Below, piece by piece: positions 1-8,096 of a DNA stretch of 64,000 nt (its first letter is position 1; each line of letters starts with the position of its first letter). Both the position numbers and the translations under genes were made by a program. This DNA is from Candidatus Bathyarchaeota archaeon (GTDB lineage Archaea > Thermoproteota > Bathyarchaeia > Bathyarchaeales > Bathycorpusculaceae). Under the pieces are notes generated by a model, which worked only from the letters and a program-made list of their open reading frames with translations, was not told where the DNA came from and ran no database searches. The stretch covers positions 1 to 64,000 of the forward strand of contig CAVZKL010000009.1 in the NCBI GenBank assembly GCA_963775895.1. The letters are read 5' to 3'.

Positions 1-1
1 C

Positions 2-13
2 TAGCGCGCGCTA
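2..13. repeat. Site S1, TAGCGCGCGCTA (perfect 12-bp palindrome)
   Basis: Read directly; sits at the very start of the window. Confidence 0.8.
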
Positions 14-140
14 TTGGTCTTAGGTTCATTATGAGGGGGTAAGTTTTTGAGTGAATTCTACCCCTCGTAGCAGCAACTGACTATCCTATCCTTGTCTTGT
101 TCCACTGGTATCCAAGTGTATCCTGAATTGGGTATACACC

Positions 141-195
141 ATCGTCCGTCGTGGTCGTCGTGGTTCGTGGTCGTGGTCATCGTCGTCCGTCGTCG
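141..195 (+). repeat. Low-complexity (GTC/GTG)n microrepeat
   Basis: atcgtccgtcgtggtcgtcgtggttcgtggtcgtggtcatcgtcgtccgtcgtcg. Confidence 0.6.
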
Positions 196-229
196 TTTTG
201 GTTGGTTGGTTGTTGGGGTAAAGTTTTAT
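196..229 (+). repeat. Direct repeat copy A, TTTTGGTTGGTTGG-(TTGTT)-GGGGTAAAGTTTTAT
   Basis: Near-identical to 1747-1774 apart from a short indel. Confidence 0.75.
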
Positions 230-276
230 CCCACACACACAAAAAAAACTGGTTGAAAAACTGTCAAAAGACTATT

Positions 277-978
277 CTAGCTTGAATGATGCCAGCCGTA
301 TTCTTCATAAATCTTCTTACCGCTGTCGGACACGAGGAAGTCGATGAATTTCTTTGCAAGGTCTTTGTTCTTGGAGAAAGTGATAACCCCTATTGCTGTG
401 CTTCTGTGCACTTGAAGGTCTTTCGGCAACTCTATTCTATCCATAGTTTCCATGTTCAAGTTTTTGAAGGCATTCCATCCAAGAATTGCATCCACTTTCT
501 TCTTGTTGATAAAAGACATCAATTCGCCACATCCATCGGCATAAGCAACGGTATTCTTTCTGATTTGCTCGGCAAATCCAGCTTTAGTTGCTAAATCATC
601 CCAGACTCCAGTCAAACAGCCACTTACAGAAACACCAAGAAGCATTCCTTCTCTTGCCAAATCGGACATTGACTTTATCTTCTTAGGATTTCCAGTTTGC
701 ACAAGAATGGCAGAGGTTCTTGAACCAAGGCTTCTTCTTGTTTCTTTAAGAACTAATCCCTTCAACTGTGCATGGTCAAGTATATACTCTGAACCACAGG
801 TTAACAAGTCGCCTTCTTTAGTTTCTGCGATTTCTTCTATGAGGTTTTCGGCTTTTCCGACAGTAAACTCAAATTCTGTTCCGAATTTTGTTTTGAACTG
901 TTCCGCACATTTCTTTATCGGTGGTGCTACTGCACCAGCGGAAAAAACATGGAGATTGTTTTGTTTCGACATATTCAT
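277..978 (-). CDS. modA: ModA-like molybdate/tungstate-binding protein with no apparent signal peptide
   Basis: LHVFSAGAVAPP start, GNPKKIKSMSDL, C-terminal AKKFIDFLVSDSGKKIYEEYGW typical of ModA; start at 978 or 972 after a GGTG SD. Confidence 0.75.
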   Translation of the reverse strand: MNMSKQNNLHVFSAGAVAPPIKKCAEQFKTKFGTEFEFTVGKAENLIEEIAETKEGDLLTCGSEYILDHAQLKGLVLKETRRSLGSRTSAILVQTGNPKKIKSMSDLAREGMLLGVSVSGCLTGVWDDLATKAGFAEQIRKNTVAYADGCGELMSFINKKKVDAILGWNAFKNLNMETMDRIELPKDLQVHRSTAIGVITFSKNKDLAKKFIDFLVSDSGKKIYEEYGWHHSS

Positions 979-1005
979 TCTCACACCGATCAATTGTATG
1001 AATAT

Positions 1006-1206
1006 TCAACTTTGCATTTCTTTGATTTTCTCTTCGACTGCTTCAAGCTCCTTCTTCAATTCTTCTGCGTAGTTCTTCAGCTTCTCAGTCTTCTCAGCTT
1101 TGGTAAGGAAGCGTCTTCTGTAACCATGCTCATGTCCATGCATACCCCACCCACAATAGTTGTCATGTCTCCCATGATGCATACCACAACCACATTCATC
1201 GTTCAT
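1006..1206 (-). CDS. Small protein with Gly/His/Cys-rich N-terminus and coiled-coil C-terminus (DUF5320-like)
   Basis: CGCGMHHGRH...GYRRRFLTKAEKTEKLKNYAEELKKELEAVEEKIKEM; GAGGTGA SD upstream. Confidence 0.75.
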   Translation of the reverse strand: MNDECGCGMHHGRHDNYCGWGMHGHEHGYRRRFLTKAEKTEKLKNYAEELKKELEAVEEKIKEMQS

Positions 1207-1254
1207 GTATTTGTTTCACCTCACTTTTCGTTTAACTATAGAAAGTAAAGTATT

Positions 1255-1270
1255 TAAACTATCAAGTTTA
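1255..1270. promoter_or_regulatory. Candidate operator palindrome TAAACT-N4-AGTTTA in the divergent promoter region
   Basis: Perfect 6-bp inverted repeat overlapping a TTTAAA TATA-like box between the divergent regulator and the DUF5320/modA genes. Confidence 0.4.
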
Positions 1271-1308
1271 TAGTGTAATAGCCGCTATTGACAGCGAAAG
1301 TGACGGTT

Positions 1309-1716
1309 ATGCAGAACAAGAATGAAGTGGTTTGTTATTGTCCGCTTGAAGGAGTCATAGATGTGATTAGCAAGAAATGGGCACTTCTTATCATAAATGT
1401 AATCGGGAACTACAGTTGTCTCAGATTCAACAAACTCATGGAAGAACTGCATGGCATCAGCCCAAAAACTCTTGCAGACACGCTGAAACAACTTCAAAAT
1501 GAACAGTTGCTCAAAAGAGAGTCATTCGCTGAAATCCCACCTCGTGTTGAATACTCATTGACAAAAGACGGACAAGGGCTAAGAGAAGCGGTGGTGCCTA
1601 TCCTAAAGTGGGCAGCAACGAGGCAAGGCTCCAAAAGGAAGTGCTCCCTATCTTACAGGAAAATGCCCGCACACAGGATAAGAGACAAAGTCACTCAAGA
1701 AAGCACGAAGAAATAG
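1309..1716 (+). CDS. HxlR-family winged-helix transcriptional regulator
   Basis: CP..G..DVISKKW, LRFNKL, ISPKTLADTLKQL, PPRVEYSLT motifs. Confidence 0.92.
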   Translation: MQNKNEVVCYCPLEGVIDVISKKWALLIINVIGNYSCLRFNKLMEELHGISPKTLADTLKQLQNEQLLKRESFAEIPPRVEYSLTKDGQGLREAVVPILKWAATRQGSKRKCSLSYRKMPAHRIRDKVTQESTKK

Positions 1717-1739
1717 AGGACTTTTTTATCAGTCCCTCT
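1715..1739 (+). terminator. Possible terminator after the HxlR gene (T-run in an imperfect hairpin)
   Basis: AGAGGAC-TTTTTTATCA-GTCCCTCT at the stop codon. Confidence 0.35.
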
Positions 1740-1746
1740 TAAGCCA

Positions 1747-1774
1747 TTTTGGTTGGTTGGGGGTAAAGTTTTAT
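1747..1774 (+). repeat. Direct repeat copy B, TTTTGGTTGGTTGGGGGTAAAGTTTTAT
   Basis: Matches 196-229; the pair brackets modA-DUF5320-hxlR. Confidence 0.75.
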
Positions 1775-1912
1775 TTTTTATCAGTTACTCCTCTACCCCC
1801 TCCAGATAACGATGATTTGCATGGTTAATGGGAGTTTTACTCCTCTTTTTGGAGTTTGTTTGGCAGAGAACTAGATTTTCGGGGTGGTTCTGCGTTCAGG
1901 GTGAAACCATGA

Positions 1913-1924
1913 TAGCGCACGCTA
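1913..1924. repeat. Site S2, TAGCGCACGCTA (1 mismatch to S1)
   Basis: Read directly; intergenic. Confidence 0.7.
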
Positions 1925-2033
1925 GTAGCTATGCGTGTGGAGAAAGCTGAAGAAAAGCTAATCAAAGAAGGTTTAGATACTTGGGGTTACATATTAAGCG
2001 TTAAGAATTGTCTGCAATTCCTACGTGAAATGA

Positions 2034-2270
2034 ATGTCGCCTCCAGATGTTTTGATTGAAATCAATCGACCAGGACAAATCTTTGAACGATTTAGAGTTC
2101 ATATCATAAAGAAAAGAAATGTAGAGCCAGAATACTTTAAGGTAGTTCCAAAGACACACCCTGCGTTAGCTATTAAACAGGTGAATGTTGGACTTAAAGT
2201 GAAAGATGAAGATGTTATTCAGTTTCTCAAAAGTTACTACGGAACAGATATCTTGATAAGAACTGTCTAG
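2034..2270 (+). CDS. Hypothetical 78-aa protein whose stop codon is the TAG of site S3
   Basis: Open frame with ATG and an upstream TATA-like TATTAAG; no family recognised. Confidence 0.65.
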   Translation: MSPPDVLIEINRPGQIFERFRVHIIKKRNVEPEYFKVVPKTHPALAIKQVNVGLKVKDEDVIQFLKSYYGTDILIRTV

Positions 2271-2279
2271 CGCGCGCCT
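2268..2279. repeat. Site S3, TAGCGCGCGCCT
   Basis: Read directly; overlaps the stop of 2034..2270. Confidence 0.75.
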
Positions 2280-2328
2280 TAAGGAACCGCGAGCGTGATG
2301 GGAAGCTTTGGTACAATAGGCATCATTT

Positions 2329-2394
2329 CTACTTCATTGCTTCTTTCTTCTTTTTTTCTTCTTTCATCCTTTCTTTCTTTCTTTTAGTTGTCAT
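2329..2394 (-). CDS. Putative 21-aa Lys/Glu-rich micro-peptide MTTKRKKERMKEEKKKKEAMK
   Basis: Hand translation; GAAGGTGA SD 4 nt upstream of the ATG; the only ORF I found between S3 and S4. Confidence 0.45.
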   Translation of the reverse strand: MTTKRKKERMKEEKKKKEAMK

Positions 2395-2476
2395 CGCATC
2401 ACCTTCTATTTACCATTTATCTCTAACAATTTCGTAGACTTGTTGTAAAGAATATCTATTTCTATGTTTCCTTGCT

Positions 2477-2490
2477 AAGCGCGCGCGCTA
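2477..2490. repeat. Site S4, AAGCGCGCGCGCTA
   Basis: Read directly; its CTA is the minus-strand TAG stop of the integrase remnant. Confidence 0.8.
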
Positions 2491-2681
2491 ATTTCTCTTT
2501 TTGAACAGCGTTGTTTCGTTATGGGTGCAGACGTAATCAAATCCTGCTTCGATGAGTTTTTGGCCTCATCGCCATTACTGGCCACTGCTGAGCAGTACTC
2601 ATCGCTCTCAAACTCTACTAGCTACGTGTAGATCTAGGTATTCGCGATGTTCTTGTGCCTCAACAACATCACGTCCAGCAC
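2488..2681 (-). pseudogene. Decayed tyrosine recombinase/integrase C-terminal fragment
   Basis: Hand translation VLDVMLLRHKNIANT*IYT*LVEFESDEYCSAVASNGDEAK, frameshift, LIEAGFDYVCTHNETTLFKKRN*; matches box II LLGHxxxxxTxxYT including the catalytic Tyr (2628-2630); two internal TAG stops. Confidence 0.8.
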
Positions 2682-2780
2682 GCGCTTGAACCTTAACGTG
2701 TTTATGATGCTACAATAAATCTAATGTTCCACATTCGCTTCTAATGGCACACTCCTGCAAACCAGACCCTGAAAAAGGAA

Positions 2781-2792
2781 GAGCGCGCGCTA
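2781..2792. repeat. Site S5, GAGCGCGCGCTA
   Basis: Read directly; left border of the ABC-exporter module. Confidence 0.8.
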
Positions 2793-2885
2793 ATTTTGCG
2801 CCCGCCCAACCATAAAAAGAAAGACCTAAATCGTGGTTGGTTTTTCTGAACCGTTTATTCGTTTGACTGAGGTGCTTGGTGGAAT

Positions 2886-3881
2886 ATGGAGTTCGCTGTT
2901 GATGTTAGAGGGTTAACAAAGGTTTATGATGGTAAGGTAAGGGCCCTAGATGGTATTGATTTGCAGGTCGGGGCCGGTAGGGTTTTCGCTTTGCTTGGCC
3001 CTAACGGGGCTGGCAAAACTACTCTGATGAGGATCTTAACCACGCAGCTCAAGCCCACTTCTGGCGAAGCTTACGTTTTCGGACTAGATGTTGTCCGTGA
3101 GAACGCTGAAATTAGGAGGCTTGTTGGCTATATTCCCCAAGAAGTGAGTGTCTGGACCGATATAAGTGGCTACGAAAATCTTCTAATCTATGCTAAAATC
3201 TACGGCGTTTCCCCTTCTAAAAGAAAAGAGATCATTAAGGATGCCTTAAAAATAATGGGGTTGAGCGAAGTTGCTAACGATCTCGTTAAGACGTACTCTG
3301 GTGGAATGATAAGAAGACTTGAGACCGCAAGCACTATGCTAATTAAGCCCAAGATTCTGTTTTTGGACGAGCCCACCATAGGCTTGGATCCCTCCGCTAG
3401 AAAGGCTGTTTGGGAGGAACTCACATCTTTCAAGAAAGAATACGGGGCAACAGTCTTCTTCAATACGCACTATATGGATGAAGCTGACCTCTACGCTGAT
3501 GAGATAGCCATAATCAACGACGGGAAGATCGCAAAGCGGGGTACTGCCGAAGAGCTCAAGCGTTCTGTTGGAGGAGAAGTCATTCTATTAAGCGCGGATA
3601 ATAATATCAACGAAGATTGTTTGAACAAAGTTAGAAGGTTGAGCTTGGTCAATGATGTTATCGTAGATGATTCGGAGCTAAGTGTCGTCGTCAAAGACGC
3701 AGAGACGGCTTTGCCTGATATTATGGAGGTTTTGAGAGTAAGTTGCGTTACCGTAAAGAAGATTTCAATAACCAAGCCGACTTTGGATGACGTCTTCTTG
3801 AAGTATGCTGGAACCAGACTTGAGTCTGGTGGCAGAATCAGCGAGGTTAGACAAGTTAGAGGCAGGATCAGGAGGGGATAG
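2886..3881 (+). CDS. ABC exporter ATP-binding subunit (DrrA family)
   Basis: GPNGAGKT Walker A, YSGGM signature, LFLDEPT Walker B, THYMDEA, C-terminal KPTLDDVFL. Confidence 0.95.
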   Translation: MEFAVDVRGLTKVYDGKVRALDGIDLQVGAGRVFALLGPNGAGKTTLMRILTTQLKPTSGEAYVFGLDVVRENAEIRRLVGYIPQEVSVWTDISGYENLLIYAKIYGVSPSKRKEIIKDALKIMGLSEVANDLVKTYSGGMIRRLETASTMLIKPKILFLDEPTIGLDPSARKAVWEELTSFKKEYGATVFFNTHYMDEADLYADEIAIINDGKIAKRGTAEELKRSVGGEVILLSADNNINEDCLNKVRRLSLVNDVIVDDSELSVVVKDAETALPDIMEVLRVSCVTVKKISITKPTLDDVFLKYAGTRLESGGRISEVRQVRGRIRRG

Positions 3882-3883
3882 AT

Positions 3884-4648
3884 TTGATGGACTCTTTGAG
3901 AAACATGCTTGTCATGATTGAACTTGAGCTTCGGAGACTCAAGCACGATAGAACAGAACTCTACACTAGGGCTGTTCAACCTATCTTATGGATCGTCATC
4001 TACGGTCCCATTATGAGCGCCGTCAAGGCAATACCCACTGGCGGTATACCTTATACAGACTACATTACTCCAGGTGTGCTGATACAGTCGACAACTTTTG
4101 TCTCCATCTTCTATGGTTTAACCATCGTCTGGGAAAGGGAGTCGGGCATTTTGAAAAAGCTCCTAGTCACACCTGCCTCGAGATACGCCACTGTCATAGG
4201 CAGGTCGATGGCGTCAGGTGTTAGGGCAATATTTCAAGCCCTAATCATCGTTCCAGTAGCGTTACTCATCGGAGTCAGGTTTGTACCTAATATTGCGTAT
4301 TTTGCTTCAGCTTTTCTGATAATATTCTTTGCTTCCGGAGGCTTTGCAGCAATATCGATCCTCATCGCGTCTTTCATGAAGACTAGAGAAAGATTCATGG
4401 GCATAGGCCAAGCCATAACCTTCCCACTCTTCTTTGCGAGCAACGCGTTATATCCTGTTCAAATGATGCCGCCCATCTTGCAGTGGTTTTCACGCGTTAA
4501 CCCCATGAGCTACATAGTCGACGCTGTAAGGAGCTTGATGATTAGCGGGAACTTGGTCAACCTTCCAATCGATTTGGCAGCCATTGCACTTTTCGATGCA
4601 ATAATGTTTGTCCTAGCCTCAGCAAGCTTCAAGAGGATTATAGAATAG
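3884..4648 (+). CDS. ABC-2 type permease (DrrB family)
   Basis: About 6 TM segments, WERESGILKKLLVTP, NPMSYIVDAVRSL. Confidence 0.93.
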   Translation: MMDSLRNMLVMIELELRRLKHDRTELYTRAVQPILWIVIYGPIMSAVKAIPTGGIPYTDYITPGVLIQSTTFVSIFYGLTIVWERESGILKKLLVTPASRYATVIGRSMASGVRAIFQALIIVPVALLIGVRFVPNIAYFASAFLIIFFASGGFAAISILIASFMKTRERFMGIGQAITFPLFFASNALYPVQMMPPILQWFSRVNPMSYIVDAVRSLMISGNLVNLPIDLAAIALFDAIMFVLASASFKRIIE

Positions 4649-4665
4649 GTCTTGACTTCGAGGAT

Positions 4666-4677
4666 GAGCGCGCGCCA
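4666..4677. repeat. Site S6, GAGCGCGCGCCA
   Basis: Read directly; between the convergent permease and DUF3795 gene ends. Confidence 0.75.
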
Positions 4678-4701
4678 GGCATTTCTATAATTCTCTTCCC
4701 A

Positions 4702-5127
4702 TTACAGCTCTGATTCTTCTTTAGACTTTTTCAGCCTGTCTTCGCATTCTCTCTGGAGCCAGAGCCATTTCTTCCGGTACCAGTCGTTGCTCCATGCTTT
4801 CTTTTGTTCTTCTAGCCATCTTCCTGTTCCGACGGCTCTACGTCTCCTCAGGTTCTCGATGACTGTCAAGTGATGCTGCCACACGGGGTTGTAGCAGAAT
4901 TGTATGAGCCGAGAGCAGGGAAACTCTTCGCACTCGCCGCAGGCTTCAAGACTCCGTTGTTCAACGCAACACTCGTAGATGTCGCATTGCTTGTGATGGT
5001 TTGAAGCAGCGCATGAGTCGCAGTTGCAGCCGCAGCCATGACAGTTTTTGTAGACCAAGTGGTCGATGCAAGCGCCACAGTAGAGACCGCAGGGTGCAGC
5101 TTGTTTGCTGTCTTCGTTTGAAGTCAT
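4702..5127 (-). CDS. Cys-rich DUF3795-like protein
   Basis: APCGLYCGAC, CHGC, CDIYECC, CGECEEFPC, ENLRR motifs; GAGGGAGG SD. Confidence 0.85.
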   Translation of the reverse strand: MTSNEDSKQAAPCGLYCGACIDHLVYKNCHGCGCNCDSCAASNHHKQCDIYECCVEQRSLEACGECEEFPCSRLIQFCYNPVWQHHLTVIENLRRRRAVGTGRWLEEQKKAWSNDWYRKKWLWLQRECEDRLKKSKEESEL

Positions 5128-5250
5128 GCATCCTCCCTCATTCGCTGATGATGGCTCGTTCTTTGCAGTATTTCAACATTGCGACAATGTGAAACAAGTA
5201 GCAGTCCCCGTGTGCTTGATTATTGCGTTTCTCGTCAAGCTTAACTTTAA

Positions 5251-5262
5251 AACGCGCGCGTA
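5251..5262. repeat. Site S7 (divergent), AACGCGCGCGTA
   Basis: (CG)4 core between divergent genes, directly 3' of a TTTAAA box; flanks differ from the consensus. Confidence 0.5.
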
Positions 5263-5285
5263 GTTATAGTTGCCTTGATGAGCTT

Positions 5286-6071
5286 ATGAAGGAAAGCAGA
5301 AAGACCCTACTGGTTCTAGTAATGCTTCTAGTTTGCGTGTTTATTCCATCTTTTGCCGCTGTGCCTTTCTCTCCGCAAGACAGCTCACTTGTGATTAAAG
5401 ACGTCCTGATCCAAACCTCTGCTGCGTACCTGTGGCTCAGCCCAATAATTCACGTTATCACTATTGTACTTCTCATAGCCTTGTATCTATACGGATCGAA
5501 AATAGGCAGAGTTACCGACGCCTTTTTCGGAATCCTGTTCTTCTTCTTTGCTTTCAGCAATCACATCGCTGTGACTGAACACTATGGGCTTGCCGTGATA
5601 ACAGGTAATTTGGTCCCTATTTTTGTCGTGGGCCTGTTCTGGATGTGGGAAGTCTACAGACCCCATAACGAGTATACTTTTGAGAGGCTCCCCGCTTGGA
5701 GATACTGGGTTTTGCCCTTTGTTTTCCTAGCTTTTTGGTCTCCGATAAACGCTAGTCTGAATCCAGACTTCAATCCTTTGTTGGTACTCACATCTTCCTT
5801 TGGAGTGATGTACTGTCCCACCACGCCCCTCATAATAGCCATCCTAACCCTAATCTATCCGAAGGTAAACATGTTTGTTCTAAGAACCACAAGTTTCGTT
5901 GGCCTGGTAATCGGTATGTTTAACGCCATGTCATTTTTCATGATGCCAGGCTATACCTTATGGAATTTGATCCTGCACACACCACTCATATTCATCTCAG
6001 CGTACGGCTTACTCATTCCAATCCTAGTGAAGAAGAATATTCCGCCGGAAACATCGCAAGAGCGAAAATAG
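5286..6071 (+). CDS. Hypothetical multi-pass membrane protein
   Basis: About 8 hydrophobic segments; ATG 5286 preferred over TTG 5223 because of the TATA position. Confidence 0.85.
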   Translation: MKESRKTLLVLVMLLVCVFIPSFAAVPFSPQDSSLVIKDVLIQTSAAYLWLSPIIHVITIVLLIALYLYGSKIGRVTDAFFGILFFFFAFSNHIAVTEHYGLAVITGNLVPIFVVGLFWMWEVYRPHNEYTFERLPAWRYWVLPFVFLAFWSPINASLNPDFNPLLVLTSSFGVMYCPTTPLIIAILTLIYPKVNMFVLRTTSFVGLVIGMFNAMSFFMMPGYTLWNLILHTPLIFISAYGLLIPILVKKNIPPETSQERK

Positions 6072-6148
6072 GATAGAGTTGCAGGCACTAGACGACAAGC
6101 AGACTGCTCCACATTAACCTATCAATGGAATATTGTTAGGTACTATGT

Positions 6149-6160
6149 TCGCGCGCGTTA
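6149..6160. repeat. Site S8, TCGCGCGCGTTA (right border of the island)
   Basis: 6151-6180 matches 2481-2510 at 24/30 positions. Confidence 0.75.
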
Positions 6161-6184
6161 TTTTCGTTTTCTGAACAGCATCAA
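6158..6184 (-). pseudogene. Second integrase 3'-end remnant (LMLFRKRK*), possibly traceable to about 6260
   Basis: Similar to the LFKKRN* tail at 2488-2508, and its stop is also followed directly by CGCGCG. Confidence 0.55.
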
Positions 6185-6386
6185 TGGGCACAACGAATCA
6201 TCTTGCGACAGAATCACAAATTCAAGATCCCATCTCGCCGAGTTCATGAACTAGTTTCTTGAATACAAAGGGTGCCAGAAGAAAAAAACCCGCAAGGGCC
6301 GACACTTCTTGTCTTAGACTTAAATGTAACTTGACATCTCTATCATTTGGACTTAACATATCTTGGAAATCTGGTGGACGACAAAC

Positions 6387-6818
6387 ATGGACGAGATACT
6401 GGAGATACTCAGAAAAACTGCATCAAGAACGCAGAAACTCTTTGACGAAAGCAAAGATCCAGCGTTGAAGAGAATAGAGAGATACGACAGGACACTCAAA
6501 TCAGAAGAGACTTCTGAAGCCCAAAAAGTCCAAGCTTCGATCATGAAGAAAATCGAATATGACCGATTGGAACAATTGTCTTCACAGCTGAGCCTCCTGT
6601 ACATTCTTCAGATGTTTGCTTTCAAAGTTAAAATAGTCCAGATATCGATCGCCAATCTTCAGGAGCAACTTCAAAAATCTGAGTTGCTTGGGAAGACCAA
6701 GGAAATTGAGGACGCAAAGAATGACGTGGAAAAACTGAAGATACTGTTGGAGGCCCAGTACGAGCTGATAAGGCAAATCGGAGAAGGACGAAAAGAGGAT
6801 CTGAACTATATAACCTAG
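6387..6818 (+). CDS. Hypothetical coiled-coil protein
   Basis: Helical E/K/L/Q-rich ORF; GGTGG SD before ATG 6387. Confidence 0.7.
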   Translation: MDEILEILRKTASRTQKLFDESKDPALKRIERYDRTLKSEETSEAQKVQASIMKKIEYDRLEQLSSQLSLLYILQMFAFKVKIVQISIANLQEQLQKSELLGKTKEIEDAKNDVEKLKILLEAQYELIRQIGEGRKEDLNYIT

Positions 6819-6932
6819 AGAATTAGACTGAAAACGACGGCTGACCTGCTTCTTTCAAGAGTCCTCGCTTCAATTTTGTTCTATACTTATAAATTCCCGA
6901 ATAGTCCTTCTTAAAACAGGAAGGACGATAGG

Positions 6933-7536
6933 TTGCCCAAGGAACTGAAGTTCGAAGCTCCGACGTGGAATCAGATATACGACATGCTGTTGAACCTGGC
7001 TGATAAAATCCGAAGCGGATGGCTTCAAGCCGGACATTATTGTCGGCATTTCAAGAGGAGGATGGCCACCAGCACGAGTCTTGTCTGACTTGCTAAGCAA
7101 TCCCAACTTGGCGAACGTCAGAGCAGAGTTCTATCTCGGTTTTGCAGAGACGAGAGACGAACCAAGTCTCACCCAGCCACTCTCGATTCACGCTGCCGAT
7201 AAGCGAATATTGATCGTGGATGAAGTCGCAGACACAGGGAAGAGCCTGCGCTTGGTGAAGAAACACGTCTGTGAACAAGGCGCAAAAGACTTGAAGATAG
7301 TGACCGTCTATTACAAACCATGGAGCATCGTCAGACCAGACTACTACGCGAAGGAGACGAGTGATTGGATAGTCTTTCCTTGGGAAATAAAGGAAACAAT
7401 CTGTAAAATCTTGAGAAGCTGCAGGAAAAACGGAGAGCCCTTTGAAAAAGAAACACAGAAGCTGGTCAAAGCGGGGATACCAGCCAAGCTAGTGAAACGT
7501 TTTGTGAAAGAAATCACTGAGGAAAATTATTGCTGA
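6933..7536 (+). CDS. Type I phosphoribosyltransferase (purine PRTase-like), frameshifted near 7014
   Basis: MPKELKFEAPTWNQIYDMLLNLADKIR, then in the +1 frame ADGFKPDIIVGISRGG...ILIVDEVADTGKSL...WIVFPWE. Confidence 0.85.
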
Positions 7537-8096
7537 AATTCATCGAGGAATTTCGCAGATACGCTGAAATCGCTGGCTTCAAGAACGTCAAGATAGGGAA
7601 CCCCAAGCGGTTTTTGCTCTCGTTTGAAGAACAAAAGCCGTCAAACGTGGATGTTCAATTTTTCGATGCCAATCGAGTTGCAACCTGGGAACACCTGTAC
7701 TTTGCGGCTTTGAACGCGCTGACAGCGTTCGAGACCCACAAGAATATTTCAAAGAGTCTTCCCATGGAGACTTTGCTTTACGCTGCGGCTGAGAAACAGA
7801 TAGTCAAGGCAACTGAACTCATGGGGATCAGATCAACCTCACGATGTATAGCGGTTTTAATTATGGGAAAACAGCTCAAGACAGTAAGATCAACATTATC
7901 GCTGATTTCAAAGTGCTTTGCTCAGCAACCAGAAGACGGAGTGCTCGAACTGTCTGAAGACAAAATGCCACTCATTCAAAGGATTTTCAACATTGGAAGC
8001 GCAGAGCTTCAAACAGTCATGCAAAACTGTGATGAGAAAAGAGCTCTGACCGATTTGGTCATTGAAATGATGGCTTTGTCGACTACCAAACGCTAA
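7530..8096 (+). CDS. cgi121: KEOPS complex subunit Cgi121
   Basis: VQFFDA..V....HL..A..NAL.AF...KNISKSL.ME.LLYAA...QI.KA pattern. Confidence 0.85.
   Translation: MLKFIEEFRRYAEIAGFKNVKIGNPKRFLLSFEEQKPSNVDVQFFDANRVATWEHLYFAALNALTAFETHKNISKSLPMETLLYAAAEKQIVKATELMGIRSTSRCIAVLIMGKQLKTVRSTLSLISKCFAQQPEDGVLELSEDKMPLIQRIFNIGSAELQTVMQNCDEKRALTDLVIEMMALSTTKR

What the first reader, a model, noticed from the sequence alone, without database searches (positions are those of the whole stretch)
1..6184. Candidate integrase-linked cassette array punctuated by palindromic TAG-CGCGCG-CTA sites
Seen: eight related sites at 2, 1913, 2268, 2477, 2781, 4666, 5251 and 6149. All are intergenic or overlap a stop codon. 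Each interval holds one self-contained module: modA/DUF5320/hxlR; a 78-aa ORF; a micro-ORF; an integrase remnant; a DrrAB exporter; DUF3795; a membrane protein. By eye I found no alternating CG run of 8 nt or more in the other ~58 kb. The sites at 2490 and 6160 start exactly at integrase-remnant stop codons. Known: tyrosine recombinases exchange strands across 6-8 bp spacers, and a palindromic spacer allows either orientation, which fits the mixed gene orientations here. Integron attC sites are long hairpins with GTTRRRY cores, which I do not see. Inference: an integron-like or dif-module-like gene-capture platform, or a tandem-insertion hotspot, using a (CG)3-4 core next to the integrase 3' end.
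Basis: partly seen in the sequence, partly recalled or inferred. Interest (0 to 1): 0.92.

Follow-up and report, generated by a model that had tools for sequence, protein, structure and literature searches.

The report
Genome-wide GCGCGCGC joints between gene modules
The short GCGCGCGC palindromes are real, but they are not tied to the integrase fragments beside them: they occur hundreds of times across this archaeon's genome and mark the seams where pieces of accessory DNA have been inserted, cut back or deleted, a pattern I could not find described in print.

Summary
Seven are (GC)4-5 or (CG)4 runs and one is decayed. The rest of the 64-kb window has no run of 8 nt or more.

The array is not special. 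The genome, a Bathyarchaeia MAG of 1.77 Mb, has 263 such runs. GCGCGCGC is its most over-represented octamer, and 193 of 263 runs are intergenic. The excess is patchy among related genera.

The sites are seams. Modules bounded by them recur elsewhere at 94-99% identity. Of 214 internal homology breakpoints, 67 coincide with a site, against about 0.5% per position by chance. In 52 of those 67, only one partner has the site. Three of six deletions between paralogues carry a new (CG)n that the undeleted copy lacks at both edges. None of 61 small indels is a clean (GC)n insertion.

Intact integrases are not followed by the motif, and no integrase, transposase, reverse transcriptase or C5 methylase tested tracks it. 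A Ku-LigD end-joining operon tracks it only partly.

Best reading: a lineage-specific break-and-join process writes or regenerates (GC)4 at new DNA joints. The enzyme is unknown. An integron-like, cassette-borne minimal site is not excluded.

The parts
4..11 (.). Site 1, GCGCGCGC inside CTAGCGCGCGCTAT, 3 nt from the start of contig C9
   Evidence: It is one of 6 of 56 contig ends that lie within 40 nt of a run.
277..1716 (.). Module 1: modA-like binding protein (277-993, minus), DUF5320 (1006-1206, minus), HxlR regulator (1288-1716, plus)
   Evidence: Pfam. The same 1.4-kb module is in G008 at 86%, flanked by (GC)5 and (GC)4 in an unrelated context. In G009 it is at 83% and is joined directly to an integrase fragment through a decayed TGCGCGTG.
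1912..1924 (.). Site 2, decayed: TAGCGCACGCTAG
   Evidence: The paralogue on C22 has CTAGCGCGTGCTA at the same place, and the sequences to its left are unrelated.
1928..2269 (+). Module 2: 78-aa ORF (2034-2270) with no Pfam family. Its TAG stop overlaps site 3.
   Evidence: There is a 96% copy at G000 C22:56914-57464, together with module 3. One Logan contig of run X6 joins 1912 to 2268 and skips this module, with 6 shared letters (laid at likeness 90, so read with care).
2270..2277 (.). Site 3, GCGCGCGC
2278..2478 (.). Module 3: truncated copy of a non-coding element of about 240 nt (it holds a 21-aa basic micro-ORF on the minus strand)
   Evidence: Copies at 94-97% in G009, G005 (two), G002 and G000 C22. 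The other copies run 31 nt further, to ...CCCTTACGGAACCCGCGCGCG. Here the element is cut at 2478 and capped by site 4.
2479..2488 (.). Site 4, (GC)5, starting right after the TAG stop of the integrase fragment
2489..2690 (-). C-terminal fragment of a tyrosine integrase with frameshifts and stops (...LGHKNIxNT..YT...LIEAGFDYVCTHNETTLFKKRN*)
   Evidence: Translation. 82% to a fragment at C7:2687-2813, which abuts a tRNA 3' half.
2681..2782 (.). Conserved non-coding element of about 100 nt that ends at a site
   Evidence: 8 copies in G000 were aligned, several with a run on both sides. Hits in G001, G002, G004, G005, G008 and G009. No Rfam family.
2783..2790 (.). Site 5, GCGCGCGC
2791..4667 (+). 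Module 4: DrrAB-like ABC exporter (drrA 2886-3881, drrB 3884-4648)
   Evidence: Pfam. 97% to G004:C115 and to metagenome locus L090, from 2791 to 4675 exactly. The right edge is at GCGCGCGC in all three. At the left edge, G004 and L090 keep 35 more nt before their own run. Copies at 87-90% (L091, L092) have no run and lie next to a tRNA gene.
4668..4675 (.). Site 6, GCGCGCGC
   Evidence: Logan contigs of X1, X2 and X6 stop matching the window here (table 8).
4677..5192 (-). Module 5: DUF3795 protein (4702-5127)
   Evidence: Pfam. 95% copy at C17:151160-150646, where the run lies 22 nt further out.
5253..5260 (.). Site 7, CGCGCGCG
5286..6071 (+). Module 6: multi-pass membrane protein with no Pfam family (ORF called from 5223; an ATG lies at 5286)
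6150..6157 (.). Site 8, CGCGCGCG, starting right after the TAA stop of a second integrase fragment
6158..6260 (-). Second integrase C-terminal fragment (...LMLFRKRK*)

Best explanation
The (GC)4-5 palindromes are a genome-wide, lineage-specific junction motif of this Bathyarchaeia lineage. They are not the att sites of the neighbouring integrase fragments. They sit at the seams between blocks of accessory DNA. Window 1-6184 is one of 19 clusters of 4 or more such seams, at a place where several small modules have been stacked and then eroded.

Shown:
- The sites bound modules that recur elsewhere.
- They coincide with homology breakpoints about 30 times more often than chance.
- They lie in lineage-specific extra DNA and never in DNA conserved between species.
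- At many breakpoints, and at 3 of 6 paralogue deletions, the site is present in the rearranged copy only.

Inferred mechanism: a trans-acting break-and-join process writes or regenerates a fixed self-complementary octamer at each new joint. Two ends are each capped with, or tailed to, (GC)n and are held together by pairing of the palindromic cap. Re-cutting at an existing site trims 10-100 nt from the neighbouring module and rebuilds the site. That would explain genes truncated flush with a site and sites flush with stop codons.

The genus carries a complete Ku / LigD-polymerase / ligase-phosphoesterase operon, which is a candidate machine but is not proven to be it. The integrase fragments are eroded bystanders inside these islands.
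For: Scale and specificity
- There are 263 runs of 8 nt or more.
- GCGCGCGC is the top octamer by observed/expected: 254 against 18.5 under an independent-bases model.
- AGCGCGCGCT occurs 56 times against 1 for its reversed control.
- 193 of 263 runs fall in the roughly 15% of the genome that is non-coding by an ORF proxy.
- The flanks carry no information beyond A at -1 and T at +1. Each is about 66% and the two are independent: 56 observed with both, 54.7 expected.

Seams
- 25 of 775 self-HSP ends lie within 6 nt of a site, against 2.3 for random positions.
- Of 214 internal breakpoints at 85% identity or more, 15 have a site in both partners, 52 in one and 147 in neither. By chance 0.5% of positions lie that close to a run.
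- Of 353 distinct breakpoints, 51 lie at a run (1.9 expected) and 45 have a run 9-100 nt outward (6.2 expected). Only 3 have one 8-100 nt inward (5.7 expected).

De novo sites
- 3 of 6 collinear paralogue indels carry a (CG)n in the short copy that is absent from both edges of the long copy: C16:2989, C2:6573 and C27:5952. They truncate real ORFs.
- 0 of 61 indels of 5-14 nt is a clean (GC)n insertion.

Across species
- In 57 syntenic gaps between G000 and the closed genome G001, sites sit in the genome with the longer gap: 9 of 27 gaps longer by 300 nt or more, against 7 of 87 other gaps (Fisher p = 0.0025).
- 0 of 78 G001 sites lie in the 190.8 kb (of 400 kb) that aligns to G000.

Population
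- 6 of 56 contig ends lie within 40 nt of a site, against 0.4 expected (P = 3e-6).
- Logan contigs diverge at the sites and show other sequences joined through AGCGCGCGCT.

Candidate machine
- The PolDom-Ku-ligase/PE operon lies at about C22:27.4-30.4 kb.
Against: - No enzyme is identified. I know of no end-joining system that adds a fixed octamer.
- Ku/PolDom does not track the motif cleanly. It was found in 8-9 of the 11 genomes of genus g1, and Ku also in G138, G108, G124, G142 and G141. It was not found in the site-rich G024, G059 (100% complete), G151, G045 and G030. It is present in the site-poor G016, G040, G078 and G114.
- The ligase ORF of the operon in G000 lacks an in-frame adenylation part.
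- 15 breakpoints have the site in both partners, and one orthologous gap shows 1 site in G000 against 2 sites flanking 600 nt in G001. That is what insertion into an existing site would give.
- The breakpoint counts reuse the same few families of elements, so they are not independent events.
- G000 and G001 are only about 72% identical, so an 'empty' gap may have lost a site.
- The maximal-order Markov expectation for GCGCGCGC is 228 against 254 observed. The excess therefore belongs to the whole (GC)n family rather than to the octamer alone.
Confidence: 0.4

Rival explanations
1. Cassette-borne minimal recombination site (integron-like in logic). Each module carries one (GC)4 as its own recombination site. 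An unidentified trans-acting recombinase integrates circular modules next to existing sites, and at low frequency at secondary sites that prefer A/TA. Site-by-secondary-site deletions leave a lone site and create new cassettes from chromosomal DNA.
For: - The arrays have the form site-module-site-module.
- Modules are bounded exactly by sites in several species.
- An X6 contig joins site 2 to site 3 with 6 shared letters.
- An orthologous gap has one site in G000 and two sites around 600 nt in G001.
- Cargo is typical of cassette arrays: toxin-antitoxin genes (PIN, MazE, CcdA), acetyltransferases, glycosyltransferases and transporters.
Against: - There are no conserved binding arms or folded attC-like structure around an 8-bp core.
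- No recombinase tracks the motif. The count of tyrosine recombinases is the same in site-poor genomes. The XerC-like integrase next to a site at C9:72332 was not found in G001, G004, G005 or G008. No hit reaches the IntI cut-off.
- Of 149 inter-site intervals of 3 kb or less, 50 hold no gene, 50 hold one and 49 hold two or more, so the one-ORF cassette rule fails.
- Gene orientation is mixed.
- 152 of 263 sites are outside clusters of 4 or more.
Confidence: 0.25
2. End-protection signal (Chi-like) or uptake signal. (GC)4 pre-exists in intergenic DNA of donors and recipients. It stops resection of broken or incoming DNA, or biases uptake. Fragments therefore begin and end at sites, and joints pile up there.
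For: - It is an octamer, lineage-specific and hugely over-represented, like Chi and DUS/USS (the properties of Chi and DUS are recalled, not checked here).
- Runs lie at or just outside the ends of homologous segments and almost never just inside.
- The distribution is patchy among lineages that share wetland and sediment habitats.
Against: - Three deletions carry a site that is absent from both edges of the undeleted paralogue.
- Sites are concentrated in accessory DNA and none of 78 lies in conserved DNA. That is the opposite of uptake sequences as I recall them.
- No RecBCD- or AddAB-type reader was sought or found.
Confidence: 0.12
3. Footprints or target-site duplications of a cut-and-paste transposon that is missing from these assemblies. 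Either 8-9 bp duplications of a (GC)4 target, or GCGC|GCGC excision scars.
For: - The unit is sharply 8 nt, with 9 and 10 nt less common.
- The two half-sites behave independently.
- MAGs often lose repeated elements, and contigs break at the sites.
Against: - No DDE_Tnp_1, Y1 or TnpB match over the curated cut-off in G000 (one sub-threshold TnpB zinc-ribbon-domain hit).
- No TnpB in G001, G002, G008, G009 or G024, and rve only in G001 and G008.
- No multi-copy element of IS size in the first 400 kb of the closed genome G001.
- No simple 8-nt footprint among 61 small indels.
- The modules have no common ends.
Confidence: 0.08
4. A functional or mutation-driven iterated palindrome (HIP1-like, protein-binding site or Z-DNA former) that is simply intergenic. 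Its coincidence with module edges follows from both being between genes.
For: - It is a GC-rich 8-bp palindrome with a lineage-specific excess, like HIP1 (abstract of PMC4390886, seen in the listing).
- Decay is by CpG transitions: GCGCACGC, GCGCGTGC, CACGTGC.
Against: - Sites lie flush with truncated genes and at deletion joints inside former ORFs.
- The inward/outward asymmetry at breakpoints is not expected of a mere intergenic signal.
- C5 methyltransferase (PF00145) was not found in G000 or G001 and was found in only 4 of 41 genomes.
- Sites are absent from conserved intergenic or coding DNA.
Confidence: 0.08
5. Assembly or sequencing artefact.
For: 6 of 56 contig ends lie at sites.
Against: The same sites occur in a closed single-contig genome (464 GCGCGCGC), in MAGs of many species, in JGI metagenome contigs and in Logan contigs of four laid runs from four studies.
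Confidence: 0.02

Closest known systems
Integron cassette arrays (attC/attI with IntI), including the archaeal integrons of 10.1101/2022.02.06.479319 (passages read)
   Same: Arrays of small accessory-gene modules separated by a repeated site. The modules recur in other contexts and species. The cargo is rich in toxin-antitoxin, acetyltransferase and transporter genes.
   Different: - The site is 8-10 bp with no folded 55-140-nt attC.
- No IntI with its extra domain was found.
- There is no single platform next to an integrase.
- Orientation is mixed, and there are many empty or multi-gene intervals.
- Sites are scattered genome-wide and appear de novo at deletions.
dif/pdif modules of Acinetobacter plasmids (recalled, not checked here)
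   Same: Modules bounded by short recombination sites, in either orientation, moved in trans by host recombinases.
   Different: As I recall, pdif sites are 28 bp, with two 11-bp Xer arms and a 6-bp spacer. Here nothing is conserved outside (GC)4 plus A/T.
HIP1 (GCGATCGC) and other highly iterated palindromes of cyanobacteria (PMC4390886, abstract only)
   Same: A GC-rich octamer palindrome, lineage-specific and over-represented more than tenfold.
   Different: As I recall, HIP1 is spread through coding and non-coding DNA and is linked to cognate methyltransferases. Here 73% of sites are intergenic, the sites mark rearrangement joints, and no C5 methylase was found in G000 or G001.
Palindromic GC clusters of yeast mitochondrial DNA (PMC4478555, abstract and introduction read)
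   Same: GC-rich palindromes scattered in intergenic DNA, with a sporadic distribution among relatives, horizontal spread, merging and shuffling, and no transposase of their own.
   Different: GC clusters are longer (for example 42 nt) and propagate as elements in their own right. Here no stand-alone (GC)n insertion was seen (0 of 61), and the motif comes with larger insertions and deletions.
Bacterial-type Ku-LigD non-homologous end joining (known in a few archaea; recalled)
   Same: The genome has PolDom, Ku and ligase-C/phosphoesterase genes side by side. The rearrangements look like end joining, with variable trimming and no homology at the joints.
   Different: As far as I recall, known NHEJ adds at most a few untemplated nucleotides, not a fixed octamer. 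Presence of the operon and of the motif overlap only partly.

Membership tests
Integron | Integron integrase (tyrosine recombinase with the IntI-specific extra domain) next to the array | tested here: not met
   The window holds only two C-terminal fragments of an LFRKRK*-type integrase. Three integrases of G000 (two LFRKRK*-type, scanned without part of their N-terminal region, and one XerC-like) score 38-70 bits on the integron-integrase model TIGR02249 (cut-off 265) and 85-104 bits on XerA (cut-off 220).
Integron | attC sites: imperfect inverted repeats of 55-140 nt with RYYYAAC / GTTRRRY cores that fold as single strands | tested here: not met
   Positional information around 258 sites is 0.03 bit or less at every position from -25 to -2, and 0.42 bit at -1. 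No attC covariance model was available (IntegronFinder was not run).
Integron | One mostly promoterless ORF per cassette, in a common orientation | tested here: not met
   Of 149 inter-site intervals of 3 kb or less, 50 hold no gene, 50 hold one and 49 hold two to five. In the window the orientations are mixed, and modules carry about 100 nt upstream of the start codon.
dif/pdif (Xer) modules | 28-bp site with two conserved 11-bp arms around a 6-bp spacer | tested here: not met
   There are no conserved arms. The two flanks vary independently.
Highly iterated palindrome (HIP-like) | An octamer palindrome over-represented genome-wide in one lineage | tested here: met
   254 observed against 18.5 expected, ranked first of all octamers. 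The excess is patchy among 151 genomes of the order.
Highly iterated palindrome (HIP-like) | A cognate DNA methyltransferase in genomes that carry the motif | tested here: inconclusive
   PF00145 was not found in G000 or G001 and was found in 4 of 41 genomes. N4/N6 methylases were not tested, and no methylome is available.
Transposon target-site duplication or footprint | A transposase and element ends associated with the repeat | tested here: not met
   Searches found no tracking transposase and no IS-size repeat. There are no common module ends.
Ku-LigD NHEJ scars | Ku, a polymerase domain, a ligase and a phosphoesterase encoded in the genome | tested here: met
   At about C22:27.4-30.4 kb: LigD_Prim-Pol (E 9e-81), Ku (1.4e-40), and DNA_ligase_A_C plus LigD_N. 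The ligase adenylation part is not in frame.
Ku-LigD NHEJ scars | The motif occurs where the operon occurs, and the enzymes add it | tested here: inconclusive
   The overlap is partial. The biochemistry cannot be tested here.

The most novel reading that the evidence does not exclude
Some Bathyarchaeia possess a DNA-joining system of a kind not yet described. It stamps a fixed self-complementary octamer, (GC)4, onto every new DNA joint. It could work by tailing or capping ends that then pair, or through an arm-less recombinase whose whole site is 8 bp. This system would both assemble and erode the accessory genome in gene-sized modules. The motif would then be a readable scar, recording each insertion and deletion event in these genomes.
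Probability: 0.35. Interest if true: 0.92.

Novelty: new variant of a known kind. Interest (0 to 1): 0.8.

Why it matters
Bathyarchaeia are among the most abundant archaea in sediments and wetlands, and almost none are cultured. How they gain and lose genes is largely unknown.

Here a single 8-bp motif marks about a third of all recent homology breakpoints. It appears at deletion joints where nothing like it stood before. It is switched on in some genera, and even in some species of a genus, but not in their relatives.

This gives a sequence-readable record of rearrangement history. It also gives a clean comparative design for finding the responsible enzyme: genus g54 has 91 and 121 copies against 4, and genus g33 has 14 against 0-3.

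If the enzyme writes or needs only (GC)4, it would be a new kind of end-joining or recombination activity. It could be useful as a tool. It would also be a new route, beside integrons, by which prokaryotes build modular gene arrays.

Tried and rejected
- Rfam on window 1-8000 at E up to 1 gave only a sub-threshold DicF hit. None of the small conserved elements is a known RNA.
- Reverse-transcriptase or retrocopy idea. This was prompted by constant 3' ends and variable 5' truncation of integrase fragments and modules. PF00078 was found in 0 of 41 genomes, so I dropped it.
- HIP-like methylase idea. PF00145 was found in 4 of 41 genomes and not in G000 or G001.
- The XerC-like integrase whose stop abuts a site at C9:72332 was found in 8 of 41 genomes and not in G001, G004, G005 or G008.
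- The count of tyrosine recombinases does not separate site-rich from site-poor genomes.
- Transposases gave nothing that tracks the motif. PF01609 and PF01797 gave no match in G000; PF07282 gave one hit below its cut-off in G000 and none in the five handles; PF00665 matched only in G001 and G008.
- Cas1 appears only as fragments in four genomes of genus g1 and was not found in G024.
- A tiny self-inserting (GC)4 element: 0 clean cases among 61 small indels.
- Scan of viral contigs with a 14-mer. All loci dense in runs have 65-68% G+C, where such runs are expected more often. None resembled these genomes.
- The look-up of sequencing runs: no listed run holds more than 0.46 of the sampled words of window 1-6400. 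I draw nothing from parts without cover. The joints there were laid at likeness 90, and several have short sides, so only the X6 joint 1912->2268 (side 37) is used, and only as weak support.
- Literature. Nine answered searches, (which combined GCGCGCGC or GCGCGC with archaea, palindrome, intergenic, overrepresented, Bathyarchaeia, integrase, mobile genetic elements, highly iterated palindrome and methyltransferase), found no paper describing this motif in archaea.
- The run-length argument is my own arithmetic on the counts, not a tool result. It says that the excess starts at 8 nt, and that the 77 9-mers and 11 C...G 10-mers are about what random flanks around a (GC)4 core would give.

Full report
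**1. The observation**

- Runs lie at 4-11, 2270-2277, 2479-2488, 2783-2790 and 4668-4675 (GC phase) and at 5253-5260 and 6150-6157 (CG phase).
- A decayed copy, TAGCGCACGCTAG, lies at 1912-1924.
- The remaining 58 kb has only two 7-mers.
- GCGCGCG occurs 18 times on both strands, against 5.4 +/- 3.0 in shuffles, and 0 of 100 shuffles reach 18.
- The gene content is as stated.
- Both integrase fragments end LFKKRN*/LFRKRK* with the run beginning right after the stop codon.

The window is the first 64 kb of contig C9 of a 1.77-Mb assembly with 28 contigs and 47.6% G+C. Site 1 therefore lies 3 nt from a contig end.

**2. The motif is genome-wide**

- The genome has 694 alternating runs of 6 nt or more, and 263 of 8 nt or more. 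By length: 155 of 8 nt, 79 of 9, 26 of 10, 2 of 11 and 1 of 14.
- GCGCGCGC is the most over-represented of all octamers, 254 against 18.5 under an independent-bases model. CGCGCGCG is second.
- Under a maximal-order Markov model the octamer is expected 228 times. The excess is therefore that of the whole (GC)n family.
- By my own arithmetic, runs of 6 nt are not in excess and the excess starts at 8 nt.
- With an ORF-based proxy for genes (85% coding), 193 of 263 sites are intergenic.
- Sites occur in all kinds of intergenic space. They lie closer to stops than to starts: 46 of 207 stop-side flanks are within 20 nt, against 10 of 172 start-side flanks.
- Around 258 sites nothing is conserved except A at -1 and T at +1. 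Each is about 66%, and the two sides are independent. The sites are therefore not the tips of a longer repeat.
- They are moderately clustered. 31.6% of neighbour distances are 1 kb or less, against 19.1% (maximum 24.5%) for random placement.
- 111 of 263 sites lie in 19 clusters of four or more.

**3. Who has it**

Record titles of related loci place the organism in the Bathyarchaeia. The runs that hold parts of the locus are wetland, peat and sediment metagenomes.

- All 11 genomes of the genus have 29-464 copies of GCGCGCGC, including a closed genome with 464.
- Most other genera of the family and order have 0-7. The exceptions are G024 (227), G030 (53), G019 (30) and G039 (19).
- G024 has 40% G+C and shows the same kind of isolated, A/T-flanked runs.
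- Across 151 genomes of the order, the 10-mer AGCGCGCGCT was compared with its reversed control. G000 has 56 against 1. High counts appear in scattered genera of four families: G059 30/0, G138 35/1, G151 40/3, G142 14/1, G045 23/0, G108 91/3, G124 121/6 and G141 12/1.
- Most other genomes have 0-4.
- There are contrasts inside genera. In g54 the counts are 91 and 121 against 4. In g33 one genome has 14 and eleven have 0-3.

**4. The sites are seams between movable blocks**

- The DrrAB module matches another species (G004) and a metagenome contig (L090) at 97% from 2791 to 4675, that is from site to site. The rest of the locus is 72-86% identical to relatives or absent from them.
- The 210-nt block between sites 3 and 4 is 94-97% identical in G009, G005 (two copies), G002 and on C22.
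- The 78-aa ORF block and the DUF3795 block have 95-96% paralogues on C22 and C17.
- The modA-HxlR block sits between two runs in an unrelated context in G008. In G009 it is joined directly to an integrase fragment through a decayed run.
- In the genome's self-comparison, 25 of 775 HSP ends lie within 6 nt of a site, against 2.3 by chance.
- I then pooled everything held: the genome, relatives' loci, 400 kb of G001 and 80 metagenome loci. Of 214 internal breakpoints of alignments at 85% identity and 200 nt or more, 67 coincide with a run of 7 nt or more in at least one partner. Only 0.5% of positions lie that close to a run.
- These breakpoints come from a limited set of element families and are not independent events.
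- Contigs of this MAG end at sites far too often: 6 of 56 ends, P = 3e-6.
- Logan contigs from four runs of four studies stop matching the window at sites 3 and 6. They show other sequences joined through AGCGCGCGCT. In one case (X6) they join site 2 to site 3 without the 78-aa module (laid at likeness 90).

**5. The site often belongs to the joint, not to the parents**

- Of the 67 site-bearing breakpoints, 52 have the run in one partner only.
- Of 353 distinct breakpoints, 51 lie at a run (1.9 expected). A further 45 have a run 9-100 nt beyond the end of homology (6.2 expected). Only 3 have one 8-100 nt inside (5.7 expected).
- This is the signature of a truncation series: one copy is cut back by 10-100 nt and carries a run flush with the cut.
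- The series is visible for DrrAB. L092 has no run, G004 and L090 have a run 35 nt upstream, and the window has a run at the cut. It is also visible for DUF3795, for the 240-nt element and for the integrase fragments of about 100, 40 and 37 residues.
- The clearest cases are two 90%-identical paralogous regions on C2 and C16. Each has a deletion the other lacks, of 434 nt and 1.33 kb. Each deletion removes part of an ORF. Each is bridged by GCGCGCG or CGCGCGCGC. The undeleted copy has nothing like a run at either edge.
- A third case is on C27. In all, 3 of 6 such indels carry a new run.
- Stand-alone insertion of the motif does not occur: 0 clean cases among 61 indels of 5-14 nt.
- Between G000 and the closed genome G001 (about 72% identity over 400 kb), 57 syntenic gaps were compared. 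Sites sit in the genome whose gap is longer: 9 of 27 gaps longer by 300 nt or more, against 7 of 87 others (p = 0.0025).
- Examples of gap lengths are 812 against 47 nt, 4250 against 128 nt, and 1536 nt with five sites against 120 nt.
- None of 78 G001 sites lies in the 190.8 kb that aligns.
- One gap shows the opposite pattern, expected of insertion at a site: one run in G000, and two runs around 600 nt in G001.

**6. Integrases are bystanders**

- G000 has about ten tyrosine-recombinase matches.
- The intact LFRKRK*-type integrases lie next to tRNA genes and are followed by T-rich terminators, not by runs. Four fragments are followed by runs.
- In relatives, 1 of 22 integrase matches that end in an F/Y-[RK]-K-x-K* tail has a run after its stop. 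The other two of the 24 loci checked are a 45-residue fragment (L046) and a match that stops short of the C-terminus (L030).
- None reaches the IntI or XerA cut-offs.
- Integrase counts are similar in site-poor genomes.
- Island genes are ordinary accessory cargo: glycosyltransferases, ABC transporters, radical-SAM enzymes, PIN/MazE/CcdA and acetyltransferases. No transposases were seen among the 127 ORFs scanned.

**7. Search for the enzyme**

The following do not track the motif:
- reverse transcriptase, 0 of 41 genomes;
- C5 methylase, 4 of 41;
- the XerC-like integrase;
- TnpB, Y1, DDE_Tnp_1 and rve;
- Cas1, present only as fragments.

The closed genome shows no repeat of IS size in 400 kb.

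One lead remains. G000 has LigD-type polymerase, Ku and ligase-C/phosphoesterase genes side by side.
- Ku was found in 8 of 11 genomes of the genus and PolDom in 9 of 11. In the first sample, only G016 and G040 had them outside the genus.
- Among the further site-rich genomes, Ku is present in G138, G108, G124, G142 and G141. It was not found in G059 (100% complete), G151, G045, G024 or G030.
- Ku is present in the site-poor G078, G114, G016 and G040.
- The association is therefore partial and is confounded by relatedness.

**8. Reading**

The shown facts fit a break-and-join process that leaves (GC)4 at new joints and re-uses old ones.

I favour an end-joining type of mechanism (confidence 0.4).
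- The motif is self-complementary.
- Its two halves behave independently.
- It appears where neither parent had it.
- The trimming is variable.

The main rival (0.25) is a minimal, cassette-borne recombination site used by an unknown recombinase, with secondary-site events. It accounts for the arrays, for the shared sites and, with more steps, for the scars. It lacks any recognisable protein or binding arms.

The other readings fit less of the evidence: a Chi- or uptake-like signal, footprints of an unseen transposon, a HIP-like motif, or an artefact.

**9. Comparison with known systems**

The locus works somewhat like an integron array or pdif modules, but it fails their defining features (see the membership test).
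- As a hyper-abundant GC-rich octamer palindrome it resembles HIP1 (PMC4390886, abstract).
- As a GC-rich palindrome scattered through intergenic DNA, with patchy phylogeny, it resembles yeast mitochondrial GC clusters (PMC4478555, abstract and introduction).
- It differs from both in being only 8-10 bp, in never inserting alone, and in marking larger insertions and deletions.
- Nine answered literature searches, plus 94 and 95, found no description of it. Supplements could not be read.

**10. Caveats**

- Gene calls are an ORF proxy.
- Breakpoint counts are not independent.
- Relatives are 72-86% identical, so 'empty' sites are uncertain.
- MAG incompleteness limits every 'not found'.
- The mechanism is inferred, not shown.

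Noticed in passing
window 197-239 and 1747-1775: A direct repeat TTTTGGTTGGTTGG...GGGGTAAAGTTTTAT flanks the modA-DUF5320-HxlR module. The same motif has short hits in G001, G002, G004, G006, G007, G008 and G030. Its summed contig depth is above 1000 around 209-215 in the laid runs, and it often stands next to a (GC)4 site (loose ends; C22 copy). It may be a second, independent repeat family or an att-like sequence.
   Followed up: partly
window 2681-2782; G000 C10:42105, C10:46094, C10:47918, C18:71359, C18:73363, C7:31719, C20:26361: A conserved non-coding element of about 100 nt (TTGAACCTTAACG...AATAAATCTAATGTTCCAC...CCTGCAAACCA.ACCCTGAAAAAGGAAG) ends at a (GC)4 run and is sometimes preceded by one. 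It has 8 copies in G000 and hits in six relatives. It matches no Rfam family. It could be a small RNA or a mobile promoter.
   Followed up: partly
window 2278-2478; L013, L014, L015, L016; G000 C22:57255-57502: An element of about 240 nt with CCTTACGGAACC near both ends and a 21-aa lysine-rich micro-ORF is 94-99% identical across species whose genomes are otherwise 72-86% identical. That suggests recent spread or strong constraint.
   Followed up: partly
G000 C22:3000-6200 (L185): A 3-kb near-perfect palindrome. The arms are about 1.5 kb with only 13 nt between them. Identity is 97-99% near the centre and falls to 81-92% at the outer ends. It duplicates a membrane-protein gene, an HTH gene and one (GC)4 site in mirror image. 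This is an inverted duplication of the kind that fold-back repair produces, or possibly an assembly chimera.
   Followed up: no
G000 C22:27400-30400 (L174:5401-8453): A complete bacterial-type NHEJ gene set in an archaeon: LigD primase-polymerase, Ku, and a ligase C-terminal domain fused to the 3'-phosphoesterase. The ligase adenylation part upstream is not in the same frame.
   Followed up: partly
G001:C1:227778-228074, 862528-862974, 2026633-2026785, 2258379-2259146; G008, G009: Cas1 in these genomes appears mostly as short or stop-interrupted fragments. Like the integrase fragments, this suggests pervasive erosion of mobile and defence genes.
   Followed up: no
G000 C7:2695-2830; C18:104650-104740; C23:15671-15760: LFRKRK*-type integrases, and one 40-residue fragment, lie directly beside tRNA 3' halves. 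Contigs C6 and C9 end inside tRNA-like sequence. This points to classical tRNA-targeted integrated elements that coexist with the (GC)4 seams.
   Followed up: partly
G000 C2:4697-7138 and C16:1905-5208: Two 90%-identical paralogous regions with small membrane and zinc-ribbon proteins, possibly two copies of an integrated element. Each has its own (GC)n-bridged deletion.
   Followed up: partly
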